Shown here: in pieces, positions 5,891 through 7,432 of the stretch
How the letters are laid out: every line of letters begins with the position of its first letter
Numbering within the stretch: the first letter of the stretch is position 1
Assembly: GCA_048941285.1 (NCBI GenBank)
Contig: JBHLNS010000038.1
Location: 1-31,647 of the forward strand
Reading direction: 5' to 3'
From: Promethearchaeota archaeon
GTDB lineage: Archaea; Asgardarchaeota; Lokiarchaeia; Sigyniarchaeales; SOKP01
DNA: 31,647 bases
Translations under genes and position numbers: made by a program
The notes under the pieces: generated by a model
Databases searched by the model: none
Told to the model about the DNA's origin: nothing
What the model saw: only the letters and a program-made list of their open reading frames with translations

Positions 5891-6370
5891 ATGTATTTAA
5901 ATGTAATTTATGAGGAAAAAGTTCAAATAGATGTTCAGAAAGCATTTGACCTAACATTTCAATGGTTAAATGGCCTGCAAAAAGCTAAAATTAAAGCATC
6001 AACACCACCTACATTTATTGAAGCTAAGCAGGGAACAATGATGACAAATACAGGTCATGATCCAAATTGGAAAAAGCGAATTCGGATAAATTTTTATACT
6101 TTGGAAGGAAATCAAACATTAATTAGAGTTGATGCGACACCAATTGCAAGAAATATATTTAGAGTTGAAAAATTAAAACAATCTTGGTACAATGGACTTT
6201 TTTCCCATCTATTTTCTCTCTTAAATAATTACGGACAAACATCTAAACAGGAAAAAGTGATCGACGCTAATGTTATCGAAGGCCTAATAATTAAATATTG
6301 CTCATATTGTGGGAAAAAAGTAGACAATGGTGCTAAAATATGTCCCAGTTGTGGAATTGATATAGACTAA
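5891..6370 (+). CDS. Protein with a C-terminal zinc ribbon
   Basis: Ends in YCSYCGKKVDNGAKICPSCG. Confidence 0.85.
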   Translation: MYLNVIYEEKVQIDVQKAFDLTFQWLNGLQKAKIKASTPPTFIEAKQGTMMTNTGHDPNWKKRIRINFYTLEGNQTLIRVDATPIARNIFRVEKLKQSWYNGLFSHLFSLLNNYGQTSKQEKVIDANVIEGLIIKYCSYCGKKVDNGAKICPSCGIDID

Positions 6371-6529
6371 AAAAATTTTGATTATTCTTTTTAAGCCATT
6401 TTTATCTATTTTTCTAAAATTTGTCGGAGTCCTTTAGCATATATAGAGATGCATTAATCTTCTTCTTATGACCAGTTCAGATTCTTATCATGATTGGGAA
6501 TTGAGTGTAAATCCTAAACAACAATATCT

Positions 6530-6890
6530 AAAAAGAAAGAAGGGACGAGAAGTTGCAAATGAATACCCGAAAGTTTTCATCAGCAAACGGTATTGTTTTG
6601 TTTTTTCACTCAAGTGAAAAAATTACAAAACATTGATTCAATTTGCGTTGTGAAGAGAAATACCAAACATCAAATAATTTCTTATTCTTTGAATGGTGTT
6701 ATCGTTTGATAACCTTACTAATTCTTGCGAATTAGCCAGATCGAACACCCAATATAAACCTAATGGTCTACATTTTAGTTCAAATTATGCTTTTACACAT
6801 AATTTCCTTTCATATCGCTATTGATTACCTTGCGGTGCCAATGCTTTGAGGTAACAATACCTCTTCTCGACGTCCAAACCGTTAGGATTG
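6530..6890 (-). ncRNA. Candidate large structured non-coding RNA (family not recognised)
   Basis: The 5' arm GGAC-GUC-GAGAAG (6875-6863) pairs with the 3' arm CUUCUC-GUCC (6552-6543). At least 8 internal hairpins include two GCAA loops and one GAAA loop. TATA at 6916-6923 lies upstream and a U-rich tail at 6530-6541 lies downstream. There is no long ORF. Confidence 0.65.
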
Positions 6891-6915
6891 AACAATATAT
6901 ATTTTGAAGAATTAC

Positions 6916-6963
6916 TATATAAATGAACCTATTAATAGGTTATTAAACAATTAAGTCGACTTA
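6916..6963 (-). promoter_or_regulatory. TATA box plus two perfect palindromes upstream of the ncRNA candidate
   Basis: TTTATATA on the minus strand (6923-6916); AACCTATTAATAGGTT (6926-6941, 16-bp perfect palindrome); TAAGTCGACTTA (6952-6963, 12-bp perfect palindrome). Confidence 0.55.
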
Positions 6964-7054
6964 GAAGAGTTAACATTTTTTAAAGTCGGAGTAATACAAA
7001 AAAAATAGAATTTTAGTTAATCATGAAAGCAATAATGAATAGATAAGATTAGTT

Positions 7055-7432
7055 TTAGAATGGGAAAATATCGATAGTTACATGTAATAACGCGCTAAGT
7101 AAGATCACAACGAGAACATATAATAAGAAAGCTATAACAGTAATAACAATAGCGCTTAATAATCCCACACTATGCATGACACTAATAATTAACCATGTTA
7201 TAATTAATGCTACTAACCATGCGAGCCAACTTTCTAAAAAAAGAAAAACTAACGCAAATGTAATTGTTATTAAGAATGCTGTTAGAAATACATGCCCAAA
7301 TTTAGTATTTCTTGCTTTGCTGAAGAATCCTAAAGCTATTTTAAGGAAAATTGCCATTATTAACAGGACAATAAGGTAAAATACTAAAAACCACATTACT
7401 TCTTCAAATGTCTGGAAAATCATTTTTATCAC
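7055..7432 (-). CDS. Small 4-TM membrane protein
   Basis: 125-aa ORF that is almost entirely hydrophobic; the true start may be ATG at 7423. Confidence 0.75.
   Translation of the reverse strand: MIKMIFQTFEEVMWFLVFYLIVLLIMAIFLKIALGFFSKARNTKFGHVFLTAFLITITFALVFLFLESWLAWLVALIITWLIISVMHSVGLLSAIVITVIAFLLYVLVVILLSALLHVTIDIFPF

What the first reader, a model, noticed from the sequence alone, without database searches (positions are those of the whole stretch)
6530..6890. Large, highly structured orphan ncRNA candidate (about 350 nt) with paired ends and GNRA loops
Seen on the minus strand: a closing helix GGAC/GUCC + GAGAAG/CUUCUC (6875-6863 with 6552-6543) encloses a nearly continuous series of stems. 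These are GAGGUA/UACCUC (6848-6863), ACC-GCAA-GGU within AUUGG/UCAAU (6820-6842), AAAUUAUGU/GCAUAAUUU (6782-6805), AAUGUAGACC/GGUUUAUAUU (6751-6774), GCUAAUUC-GCAA-GAAUUAGU (6717-6736), GUUAUC/GAUAAC (6698-6713), GAAUAA-GAAA-UUAUUU (6672-6687) and a 7+9 bp hairpin (6594-6632) inside GCAAA-U-UGAAU/AUUCAUUUGC. The G-U wobbles and GNRA loops work only on the minus strand. A TATA box lies upstream and UUCUUUCUUUUU follows the 3' arm. I do not see RNase P, SRP, group I/II intron or tRNA signatures. Inference: a stand-alone multi-domain RNA of an undescribed class.
Basis: partly seen in the sequence, partly recalled or inferred. Interest (0 to 1): 0.85.

Follow-up and report, generated by a model that had tools for sequence, protein, structure and literature searches.

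The report
New modular structured RNA in Asgard archaea
This stretch is the gene of an abundant, elaborately folded non-coding RNA of about 350 bases that matches no known RNA family and belongs to a new, modular RNA family found only in one family of Asgard archaea.

Summary
The finding is real. Window 6535-6893, minus strand, is a stand-alone gene for a structured RNA of about 330-360 nt. It has its own TATA box and an oligo-U end. It folds far better than shuffles (z -6.6 against -3.6 for the plus strand). Across 28 homologs, 114 base pairs are 93% kept and 37 show compensatory changes (0 of 500 shuffles reach this). Metatranscriptome contigs from 4 studies cover only 6546-6876. No Rfam family matches. 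The genome carries its RNase P RNA and SRP RNA elsewhere.

Four do not, nor does the outer half of that eighth; covariation supports the long-range helices P2 and P3 and a local 3' hairpin instead.

The RNA founds a modular family. A conserved scaffold (P1, P2, P3, Px, P12) carries interchangeable interior domains. Shorter forms, composite forms, tandem genes and three-module transcripts of about 740 nt all occur.

The family was found in 54 of 135 genomes of one Promethearchaeota family and in 0 of 125 genomes sampled from 26 other families of the phylum. It sits in at least four gene contexts, with no linked protein gene.

Function is unknown. My best inference is a trans-acting architectural scaffold RNA.

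The parts
6535..6893 (-). The RNA gene as inferred: start near G6893, end in the U-tract. Metatranscriptome contigs cover 6546-6876.
   Evidence: TATA box centred about 26 nt upstream of 6893 and a U-tract at the end. Homology block. RNA contigs lie only within 6546-6876.
6916..6945 (-). Promoter: TAATAACCTATTAATAGGTTCATTTATATA, which includes the TATA box TTTATATA at 6923-6916. It is conserved in front of family members in two genera.
   Evidence: The 30-nt pattern (up to 3 mismatches) and a looser regular expression each occur once in the genome.
6955..6990 (-). Further conserved upstream elements: TCCGACTTTAAAAAA (6990-6976) and CGAC (6958-6955).
   Evidence: Seen upstream of type 1, 2 and 3 genes. 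The distal-motif pattern occurs only 4 times in the genome, and the combined architecture is seen only at this gene.
6872..6893 (-). 5' hairpin: GUUCA..CC-UAAC-GG..UGGAC.
   Evidence: 7 pairs, 96.4% of cells paired, 1 pair with a two-sided change (helix 1). Absent in one family member, L205. Its 5' half is not covered by RNA contigs.
6863..6869 (-). P1 5' strand CGAGAAG, which pairs with 6546-6552.
   Evidence: 98% paired; 4 of 7 pairs are invariant in 28 sequences (helix 2).
6546..6552 (-). P1 3' strand CUUCUCG.
   Evidence: helix 2. Part of the most conserved stretch across 60 modules.
6853..6861 (-). P2 5' strand GGUAUUGUU, which pairs with 6589-6597.
   Evidence: 93.8% paired. G-C changes to A-U in 4 and in 6 sequences at two pairs (helix 3).
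6589..6597 (-). P2 3' strand AACAAUACC.
   Evidence: helix 3.
6839..6848 (-). P3 5' strand CAAAGCAUUG, which pairs with 6626-6635. In many homologs it is longer by CUC/GAG.
   Evidence: 12 pairs, 5 of them with two-sided changes (helix 4).
6626..6635 (-). P3 3' strand CAAUGUUUUG.
   Evidence: helix 4.
6827..6836 (-). P3a hairpin ACC-GCAA-GGU, with a GNRA loop in most homologs.
   Evidence: helix 5 (91.6% paired, no two-sided change).
6645..6818 (-). Interior 'domain A'. P4 (6818-6816 with 6647-6645) and P5 (6812-6805 with 6658-6651) close a six-way junction. The junction carries P6 (6804-6783), P7/P8 (6782-6742), P9 with a GCAA loop (6736-6717), P10 (6713-6698) and P11 (6697-6662).
   Evidence: helices 6-13: 90.5-98.8% paired, and every one of these helices has at least 1 pair with two-sided changes.
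6602..6621 (-). Px hairpin UUUUUCAC-UUGA-GUGAAAAA.
   Evidence: On 60 modules all 7 pairs show two-sided changes and 94.8% of cells are paired (helix 1; the alignment is fitted to the model).
6555..6584 (-). P12 3' hairpin: GCUGAUGAA / UUCAUUUGC around ACU-UUCG-GGU.
Evidence: On 60 modules, 11 pairs, 7 with two-sided changes, 90.9% paired (helix 2).
6530..6541 (-). U-rich tract UUCUUUCUUUUU, the likely archaeal terminator.
   Evidence: A similar T-run follows all family members printed.
6543..7050 (-). Presence/absence block (promoter plus RNA). Three close relatives without the RNA have an unrelated filler of 135-156 nt here, between the same two flanking genes.

Best explanation
Window 6535-6893 (minus strand) is the gene of a stable, abundant, stand-alone non-coding RNA of about 330-360 nt. 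It is 'type 1' of a previously undescribed modular RNA family, found in one family of Promethearchaeota (Asgard archaea).

Shown:
- A dedicated promoter with conserved upstream elements and an oligo-U end.
- A covariation-supported fold. The 5' and 3' ends pair (P1). Two stacked three-way junctions (P1/P2/P12 and P2/P3/Px) form a conserved scaffold. P3 carries a variable interior domain, here a six-way junction.
- The same scaffold carries other interiors in other genomes. It can hold two interiors at once, and it can be repeated three times inside one closing helix.

Inferred: it acts in trans as an architectural RNA. The sequence-conserved P12/P1 platform and the exchangeable interior domains bind partners, which could be proteins or further copies of the RNA. 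Module number and gene copy number would then set the capacity of the scaffold or the amount of partner sequestered.

My odds: about 0.95 that this is a real, expressed, structured RNA of a family not in Rfam; about 0.45-0.5 for the scaffold or sequestration mode of action.
For: Fold: z -6.63 on the minus strand against -3.60 on the plus strand.

Homologs: full-length matches at 73-91% identity in 14 further genomes of the first draw; 33 of 54 genus genomes by BLAST.

Structure on 28 sequences: 114 pairs, 93.0% of cells paired, 37 pairs and 133 cells with two-sided changes against 21.5 and 41.3 in shuffles (0 of 500 reach either). Slid controls give 14-25 such pairs and 35-43% paired. The 3' domain on 60 modules: 14 of 18 pairs with two-sided changes.

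Expression: 11 of the 20 runs that hold part of the stretch are on record as RNA. In the 4 runs laid, from 4 studies, contigs lie only within 6546-6876 (one 331-nt contig is exactly that span). Cover is zero on 6300-6545 and 6877-7100.

Non-coding: the three small ORFs are intact in 9, 1 and 5 of 28 homologs.

Stand-alone: at least four unrelated neighbourhoods, and the promoter architecture is unique in the genome.

Modularity: the type 2 interior differs. One scaffold in L232 holds a type-2-like and a type-1-like interior. Six transcripts of about 740 nt hold three modules each; in all 6 the first 5' strand pairs best with the last 3' strand (-9.6 to -10.8 against -5.9 to -7.9 kcal/mol within the module). 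Tandem genes occur in L059.

Helix strands are more conserved than unpaired columns (0.88 against 0.79). The P12 3' strand plus the P1 3' strand is the most conserved stretch over 60 modules. This suits a recognised platform better than a catalytic core.
Against: No partner is known, and no protein gene is linked to the RNA.

The RNA was not found in 17 of 54 genus genomes, 8 of them 95% complete or more. It is therefore dispensable.

Module repetition also fits RNA-only self-assembly, or mere duplication.

Transcript ends rest on contigs, which cannot show true ends. Contig stops at 6875 and 6876 sit beside a variable site and may be assembly breaks.

The homologs are close kin, so shuffle controls overstate significance. 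The alignment for one search was fitted to the model.

No full-length covariance model could be built, so distribution rests on a 103-position model of the 3' domain. That model would miss relatives with a different 3' domain.
Confidence: 0.5

Rival explanations
1. RNA-only quaternary assembly. Like the bacterial GOLLD, ROOL and OLE RNAs, the RNA forms homo-oligomers without protein. On this reading the three-module transcript is a covalently linked version of such an oligomer.
For: The RNA is large and has many helices. It carries two GNRA loops (P3a, P9) and a UUCG loop. It is patchy across genomes and abundant. Three modules sit inside one closing helix in 6 of 6 such transcripts. The paper on GOLLD, ROOL and OLE reports 14-, 8- and 2-mers (abstract and the section 'Biological relevance of homo-multimerization' read).
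Against: There is no homology to those RNAs. I saw no palindromic loop that stays palindromic while it varies; this was by eye on the alignments, not a formal scan. The scan found no convincing extra helix. The same paper found the raiA RNA to be a monomer, so size alone does not predict assembly. No phage link was found.
Confidence: 0.15
2. Ribozyme: a large catalytic RNA, for example self-processing at module borders or acting on another RNA.
For: Size and complexity are in the range of known large ribozymes. Some unpaired stretches are nearly invariant among type 1 RNAs, for example GAUAUGAAA at 6816-6808, and this motif is kept in the mini variant L217.
Against: Unpaired columns are on average less conserved than paired ones. 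The interior that holds those stretches is replaced wholesale in type 2 and type 3. There is no match to any ribozyme family in Rfam. The RNA is dispensable in many genomes.
Confidence: 0.1
3. RNA of a mobile or conflict-related cassette: the unit of promoter plus RNA moves or is exchanged between genomes and serves a selfish, defence or counter-defence role.
For: The unit sits in at least four contexts. It is a clean presence/absence block of about 508 nt against a filler of 135-156 nt at one syntenic site. It is patchy across genomes. Copy and module number vary. A three-module copy in a genus-g1 genome is 97% identical to one in genus g14.
Against: There is no integrase, transposase, reverse transcriptase or defence gene beside it. 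No terminal repeats bound the block; the second ACUCCGAC at 6430-6423 is also kept in RNA-less genomes. There was no hit in viral contigs or phage records beyond one 61-nt match at E 7e-4. The 97% pair lies on a 6.3-kb contig of a 79%-complete genome bin and may be mis-binned. Types 2 and 3 share a position after a PolB-family gene in both genera, which speaks for vertical descent.
Confidence: 0.15
4. A known RNA in disguise (RNase P, SRP, an intron, a Y-like RNA), or a cis-acting leader or antisense element of a neighbouring gene.
For: It has a closing helix of the two ends and a size near 350 nt, as in RNase P and SRP RNAs.
Against: The genome has an RNase P RNA on another contig (119.3 bits, above the cut-off) and an SRP RNA on another (68.7 bits, full length). 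Rfam finds nothing here. The TROVE domain was found in 0 of 54 genus genomes. The gene downstream is convergent, the RNA ends in its own U-tract, and the neighbours differ between genomes.
Confidence: 0.03

Closest known systems
GOLLD, ROOL and OLE (large 'ornate' bacterial and phage RNAs)
   Same: Large stand-alone RNAs with many covariation-supported helices and GNRA loops. They are highly expressed, patchy across genomes and of unknown function (paper read in part).
   Different: No sequence or structure match. This RNA is archaeal and smaller as a single module (about 350 nt). No phage link was found. Oligomerisation is untested. The family is openly modular, with exchangeable interiors and one to three modules.
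Archaeal RNase P RNA (Rfam RF00373)
   Same: About 300-350 nt, the 5' and 3' ends pair, multi-helix junctions, abundant and stable.
   Different: The genome has its own RNase P RNA elsewhere. There is no RF00373 match at this locus even at E <= 10. The RNA is not universal (17 of 54 genus genomes lack a match).
Archaeal SRP (7S) RNA (Rfam RF01857)
   Same: About 320 nt, closed by end pairing, with GNRA-capped helices.
   Different: A separate full-length SRP RNA match lies on another contig, and there is no match here.
Protein-sequestering RNAs with variable repeat number (CsrB/RsmZ type, 6S) and 'flexible scaffold' RNAs such as yeast telomerase RNA. This comparison is recalled, not from a call.
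   Same: The number of repeated units varies between relatives, and domains can be moved or combined on one backbone. Both are seen here.
   Different: No homology, no known protein partner, and the units here are about 240-nt multi-helix modules rather than short hairpins. This is a likeness of logic only.

Membership tests
Archaeal RNase P RNA (RF00373) | Match to the family covariance model (P1-P4 core with conserved regions CR-I to CR-V) | tested here: not met
   No match at 6300-7100 even at E <= 10. The model does find a 119.3-bit match on contig C30 of the same genome.
Archaeal RNase P RNA (RF00373) | One essential copy in every genome | tested here: not met
   Not found in 17 of 54 genus genomes, 8 of them 95% complete or more, and not found in 10 of 13 genera of the family.
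Archaeal SRP RNA (RF01857) | Match to the family covariance model (helices 5, 6 and 8) | tested here: not met
   No match here. A full-length 68.7-bit match lies on contig C36.
Group I / group II introns | Match to the intron models; insertion in a host gene; an intron-encoded protein for many group II introns | tested here: not met
   No Rfam match. The RNA has its own promoter and terminator in intergenic DNA. The neighbouring ORFs examined have no reverse transcriptase or maturase domain.
GOLLD / ROOL / OLE / raiA | Match to the Rfam models of these RNAs | tested here: not met
   0 matches in the window at gathering score, none at E <= 10 on the locus, and none at E <= 0.1 on 8 loci of other family members.
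GOLLD / ROOL / OLE | Homo-oligomeric RNA-only assembly | not testable with these tools
   This needs mass photometry, native gels or cryo-EM. Three modules in one transcript is only a hint.
Y RNA / Ro RNP | A Ro60 (TROVE) protein in the same genome | tested here: not met
   PF05731 was found in 0 of 54 genus genomes, while the control genomes rang as expected.
cis-regulatory leader / riboswitch | Lies in the 5' UTR of a co-oriented gene, with a conserved downstream gene class | tested here: not met
   A U-tract follows the RNA and the next gene is convergent. The neighbours differ between genomes.
Type III toxin-antitoxin RNA | Tandem RNA repeats directly upstream of a toxin (endoribonuclease) gene | tested here: not met
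   Tandem modules exist, but no conserved adjacent protein gene does.

The most novel reading that the evidence does not exclude
Asgard archaea of this family carry a new class of large modular RNAs. A conserved double three-way-junction scaffold is used as a chassis. Whole structured domains have been swapped onto it, stacked on it (two interiors on one scaffold) and multiplied on it (three modules inside one closing helix). On this reading the RNA works as a programmable architectural RNA. It either nucleates an Asgard-specific RNP or self-assembles into an RNA-only complex, and the three-module form is the single-chain version of an oligomer. That would be the first 'ornate' accessory RNA class known in archaea, and a prokaryotic parallel to flexible-scaffold long non-coding RNAs of eukaryotes.
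Probability: 0.3. Interest if true: 0.9.

Novelty: categorically new. Interest (0 to 1): 0.8.

Why it matters
Few large, complex-folded RNA classes are known. In archaea, to my knowledge, they are essentially limited to rRNA, RNase P RNA and SRP RNA. New classes of this size have usually turned out to have sophisticated functions.

This one is abundant in sediment and soil metatranscriptomes. It belongs to the closest prokaryotic relatives of eukaryotes. It also shows an unusually clear natural record of RNA domain shuffling: the same scaffold carries different, combined or triplicated domains. That record gives direct handles for experiments, such as comparing one-module and three-module forms or swapping domains.

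The consensus structure and covariance models obtained here also allow annotation of this RNA in Asgard genomes, where it is at present unannotated intergenic DNA.

Tried and rejected
Known families. Rfam gave nothing at gathering score on the window, only four matches with E between 5 and 10 on the locus, and nothing at E <= 0.1 on 8 loci of other family members. RNase P and SRP RNAs lie elsewhere in the genome. The Ro/TROVE idea fell: 0 of 54 genus genomes.

GGAC/GUCC, GAGGUA/UACCUC, AUUGG/UCAAU, the long-range GCAAA-U-UGAAU/AUUCAUUUGC and the outer 7 bp of the 6594-6632 hairpin were rejected on counts. An alternative register, in which the P3 3' strand pairs with the P2 3' strand, is possible in most sequences (81.5% of cells). 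It breaks where P3 covaries, so I kept P2 and P3.

Leader pairing. A 9-bp pairing of the 5' leader with the P7 3' strand looked attractive. One lineage changed the columns together. But duplex energies are no better than for shuffled leaders, and the best site is not constant across the family. Dropped.

Domain swap in three-module RNAs. Only the outer closing helix is clear. The internal junction strands are weak and ambiguous, so I make no claim.

Remnant of the RNA in RNA-less relatives. The filler aligns to the cassette no better than shuffles (scores 93-105 against means of 84-91, sd 5.5-6.8). The direction of the change, gain or loss, is therefore unknown.

Linked protein. The upstream 125-aa ORF is a small hydrophobic protein. 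It is present in 5 genomes that lack the RNA and not found in 8 that have it. I do not consider it a partner.

Regulon. The upstream motifs occur nowhere else in the genome in this arrangement.

Viruses. The motif gave 0 hits in viral contigs, and phage records gave one 61-nt match at E 7e-4.

Pattern scan of genome contigs. My 17-mer was too short and most of the 118+ hits are chance. I used only the titles of the archaeal hits.

Model R1 came out without base pairs and was not used further.

Literature. Searches (listings only) and a term search in one 2026 preprint found no description of this RNA. Supplements were closed, so lists of candidate motifs there could not be seen.

Depth and uncovered parts are not used as measures of expression level.

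K-turn, bulge-helix-bulge and tetraloop-receptor motifs were looked for by eye only; none was convincing.
Full report
OBSERVATION. As single-stranded RNA it folds to -106.1 kcal/mol. That is 6.6 sd better than 100 dinucleotide shuffles, none of which fold as well. The plus strand reaches -84.6 kcal/mol (z -3.6). The region is intergenic. The ORFs on either side are 5891-6370 (+, zinc-ribbon domain) and 7055-7432 (-, 125 aa, no Pfam family). GC content is 34% in the RNA, 21-26% in its flanks and 30% in the window.

NOT A KNOWN FAMILY. Rfam 15 gives no match in the window at gathering score. In E-value mode on 6300-7100 there are only four matches, with E between 5 and 10. The same genome has an RNase P RNA on contig C30 (119.3 bits, above the cut-off) and a full-length SRP RNA match on C36 (68.7 bits, below Rfam's 96.5). 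The candidate occurs once in its genome. No tRNA lies in the window. The TROVE domain of Ro proteins was found in 0 of 54 genus genomes.

HOMOLOGS AND COVARIATION. BLAST over relatives found full-length matches at 73-91% identity in 14 genomes of the same genus in the first draw. Over the genus, 33 of 54 genomes matched at E <= 1e-5. I aligned 28 full-length 'type 1' sequences (A3). RNAalifold on a first set of 15 gave 103 pairs, 30 of them with compensatory changes.

My curated structure has 114 pairs in 16 helices. On A3, 93.0% of cells are paired. There are 37 pairs and 133 cells with changes on both sides, against 21.5 and 41.3 in shuffles; 0 of 500 shuffles reach either figure. Sliding the 3' partners by 1-3 columns gives 14-25 such pairs and 35-43% paired. 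The sequences are close kin, so the shuffle figures overstate significance. The slid controls do not have that weakness.

The four reader helices that conflict with this structure are 25 pairs. They are 80.6% paired and their covariation is not above shuffles (141 of 500 reach it).

CORRECTED ARCHITECTURE (window coordinates, minus strand).
- 5' hairpin: 6893-6872.
- P1: CGAGAAG (6869-6863) with CUUCUCG (6552-6546).
- P2: 6861-6853 with 6597-6589.
- P3: 6848-6839 with 6635-6626.
- P3a: hairpin ACC-GCAA-GGU (6836-6827).
- P4 (6818-6816 with 6647-6645) and P5 (6812-6805 with 6658-6651) close a six-way junction. The junction bears P6 (6804-6783), P7/P8 (6782-6742), P9 with a GCAA loop (6736-6717), P10 (6713-6698) and P11 (6697-6662).
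- Px: hairpin 6621-6602.
- P12: hairpin 6584-6555, with a UUCG loop.
- U-tract: 6541-6530.

P1/P2/P12 and P2/P3/Px are two stacked three-way junctions. For example, pair 36-315 is G-C in 19 sequences and A-U in 4, and pair 55-271 is C-G in 21 and U-A in 5. The P3 3' strand can also pair with the P2 3' strand in 81.5% of cells. But it is not the fold that evolution keeps.

A GENE WITH ITS OWN SIGNALS, AND EXPRESSED. TTTATATA at 6923-6916 is centred about 26 nt before G6893, and a U-rich run follows P1. Conservation among relatives starts upstream of the TATA box and stops just after the U-tract.

Of the 20 public runs that hold part of a 601-nt probe, 11 are on record as RNA. The 20 come from 12 studies of sediment, soil and mangrove. 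I laid four metatranscriptomes from four studies. All contigs lie within 6546-6876:
- a 331-nt contig equal to 6546-6876,
- a 258-nt contig at 6552-6809,
- a 267-nt contig at 6609-6875,
- a 240-nt contig at 6618-6855,
- and a few shorter or more diverged pieces.
Nothing lies on 6300-6545 or 6877-7100.

Contigs cannot give true ends. The stops at 6875 and 6876 sit beside a site that varies among relatives and may be assembly breaks. So it is open whether the 5' hairpin is part of the mature RNA.

The small ORFs that overlap the RNA are intact in 9, 1 and 5 of 28 homologs. It is not a protein gene.

A MODULAR FAMILY. I therefore modelled the 3' domain: the P3 3' strand, Px, the P2 3' strand, P12 and the P1 3' strand. 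R2 was built from 14 sequences with a structure I set. R3 was rebuilt from 60 matches. On those 60 modules Px and P12 are 92.4% paired, and 14 of 18 pairs have two-sided changes (0 of 500 shuffles reach this). The alignment is fitted to the model.

The models and BLAST revealed variants. The type names are mine.
- Type 2. P1 to P1' is about 240 nt. It has a second 5' hairpin and a different interior of four hairpins. In one genome there are two tandem genes, each with its own promoter.
- A composite RNA of about 665 nt. One P1/P2/P3 scaffold holds a type-2-like interior, an extra domain and a type-1-like interior (L232).
- A mini type 1 of about 198 nt that keeps the GCGAUAUGAAAAG motif (L217).
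- Type 3. Six transcripts of 735-741 nt, each with one promoter, one 5' hairpin, three tandem modules and one terminator.

In all 6 type 3 RNAs the first module's 5' strand pairs best with the last module's 3' strand (-9.6 to -10.8 kcal/mol, against -5.9 to -7.9 within the module). So one P1 closes all three modules. The inner junction strands are weak and ambiguous. One genome has both a type 1 and a type 2 gene.

None of these variants matches Rfam. Across 60 modules the most conserved stretch is the P12 3' strand plus the P1 3' strand. Within type 1, paired columns are more conserved than unpaired ones (0.88 against 0.79).

DISTRIBUTION AND DYNAMICS.
- In the genus, 37 of 54 genomes have a match. 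Of the 17 without one, 8 are 95% complete or more.
- In the whole family, 54 of 135 genomes have one: genus g1 36 of 53 plus the window's own genome, g14 16 of 42, g17 1 of 6, and the other ten genera 0 of 33.
- Other families of the order: 0 of 19.
- A phylum-wide sample of 26 other families: 0 of 125.
These are samples, searched with a 103-position model under strict filters. The right wording is 'not found', not 'absent'.

Neighbours differ between groups of genomes. They include a nitronate monooxygenase-like protein, a radical SAM protein, an alpha/beta hydrolase, AsnC, a gelsolin-domain protein, a PolB-family protein, a GyrI-like protein and a methyltransferase.

The 125-aa ORF upstream is a small hydrophobic protein. 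It is next to the RNA in 17 genomes. It is also present in 5 genomes that lack the RNA, and it was not found in 8 that have it.

Three of those RNA-less relatives keep the same two flanking genes, but window 7050-6543 is replaced by 135-156 nt. That filler aligns to the cassette no better than shuffles. So promoter plus RNA behaves as one presence/absence block.

About 110 nt upstream are conserved across types and genera: TCCGAC..AAAAA, CGAC, then TAATAACCnnTTAATAG and the TATA box. This arrangement occurs only here in the genome. No link to viruses was found. One type 3 copy in a genus-g1 bin is 97% identical to a genus-g14 copy. This is either transfer or mis-binning of a 6.3-kb contig.

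HOW IT MOST LIKELY WORKS.

Shown: a stable, abundant, non-coding, stand-alone RNA with a conserved closing scaffold and exchangeable interior domains. It is dispensable and variable in copy and module number.

Inferred: it acts in trans as an architectural RNA. Three observations point this way. Helical strands of the P12/P1 platform are conserved in sequence beyond what pairing needs. Whole interior domains are swapped, combined on one scaffold, or encoded as separate genes in one genome. Modules are multiplied inside one closing helix. All three are what one expects if each module is a binding unit for a partner. They are less expected for a catalytic core or a ligand pocket.

Whether the partner is protein (an RNP scaffold or a sponge) or the RNA itself (self-assembly, as shown for GOLLD, ROOL and OLE) cannot be told here. 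I give about 0.5 to the scaffold or sequestration reading, 0.15 to RNA-only assembly, 0.15 to a mobile or conflict-related cassette, 0.1 to a ribozyme and about 0.03 to a known or cis-acting element.

NOVELTY. No Rfam family matches. Five literature searches (listings only) and a term search in one 2026 preprint on prokaryotic non-coding sequence space found no description of this RNA. To the extent these tools can show, it is an undescribed RNA class, and a rare case of a large complex-folded accessory RNA in archaea.

CAVEATS. The distribution rests on a model of the 3' domain only. The transcript ends rest on contigs. The homologs come from one taxonomic family, so the number of independent substitution events is smaller than the number of cells counted. 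The mechanism is inference. The comparisons with CsrB-type RNAs and with telomerase-type scaffold RNAs are recalled, not tested.

Noticed in passing
L212:418-1165 (also L213, L214, L222, L224, L225): Single transcripts of 735-741 nt with three tandem modules of this RNA family inside one outer closing helix. The modules are separated by spacer hairpins. Pairwise identity among the six is 83-97%.
   Followed up: partly
L232:945-1610: A composite RNA of about 665 nt in a second genus. One P1/P2/P3 scaffold encloses a type-2-like interior, an extra domain and a type-1-like interior.
   Followed up: partly
L214 against L212: A three-module copy on a 6.3-kb contig of a genus-g1 genome bin (79% complete) is 97% identical to the copy in a genus-g14 genome. 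This is either horizontal transfer or a mis-binned contig.
   Followed up: partly
window 6543-7050, against L233, L234, L235: Three close relatives keep the flanking 125-aa ORF and the zinc-ribbon gene but have an unrelated filler of 135-156 nt in place of the promoter plus RNA.
   Followed up: yes
window 6916-6990: An elaborate conserved upstream region (TCCGAC..AAAAA, CGAC, two TAATA boxes 11 bp apart, then the TATA box) that is unique to this gene in its genome. It may be a dedicated transcription-factor site.
   Followed up: partly
window 6423-6430: A second ACUCCGAC lies downstream of the RNA, repeating the one at 6985-6992. It is also kept in RNA-less relatives, so it is not a border of the cassette.
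   Followed up: partly
run X11, record 4, laid on window 6697-6725 and 6791-6819: A 492-nt metatranscriptome contig at depth 364 shares only two 29-nt pieces with the RNA, with 66 other letters between them. It is probably a more distant, very abundant relative of this RNA.
   Followed up: no
window 6872-6876, 6778-6782 and 6742-6746: UGAAC recurs in the 3' arm of the 5' hairpin and in the P7 5' arm. One lineage (G012, G043, G056) changed the matching columns together. A leader-to-P7 pairing is possible, but it is no more stable than with shuffled leaders.
   Followed up: yes
L051 (G063), L218 (G013 second copy), L205 (G062): Probable decayed or atypical copies. One lacks the Px 3' half and the P2 3' strand. 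One keeps only the 3' domain. One lacks the 5' hairpin.
   Followed up: no
G000:C36:8789-9111: The genome's SRP RNA scores 68.7 bits, below Rfam's gathering score of 96.5. Standard annotation would miss it in this AT-rich lineage.
   Followed up: no
L018:1914-3044, and upstream of L212, L213, L222, L223: Type 2 and type 3 genes in two genera lie just downstream of a PolB-family gene. This looks like an old, shared position for that branch of the family.
   Followed up: partly
L055:2358-2948: A gelsolin-repeat protein is encoded beside one homolog of the RNA. Gelsolin is one of the eukaryote-like proteins typical of Asgard archaea.
   Followed up: no
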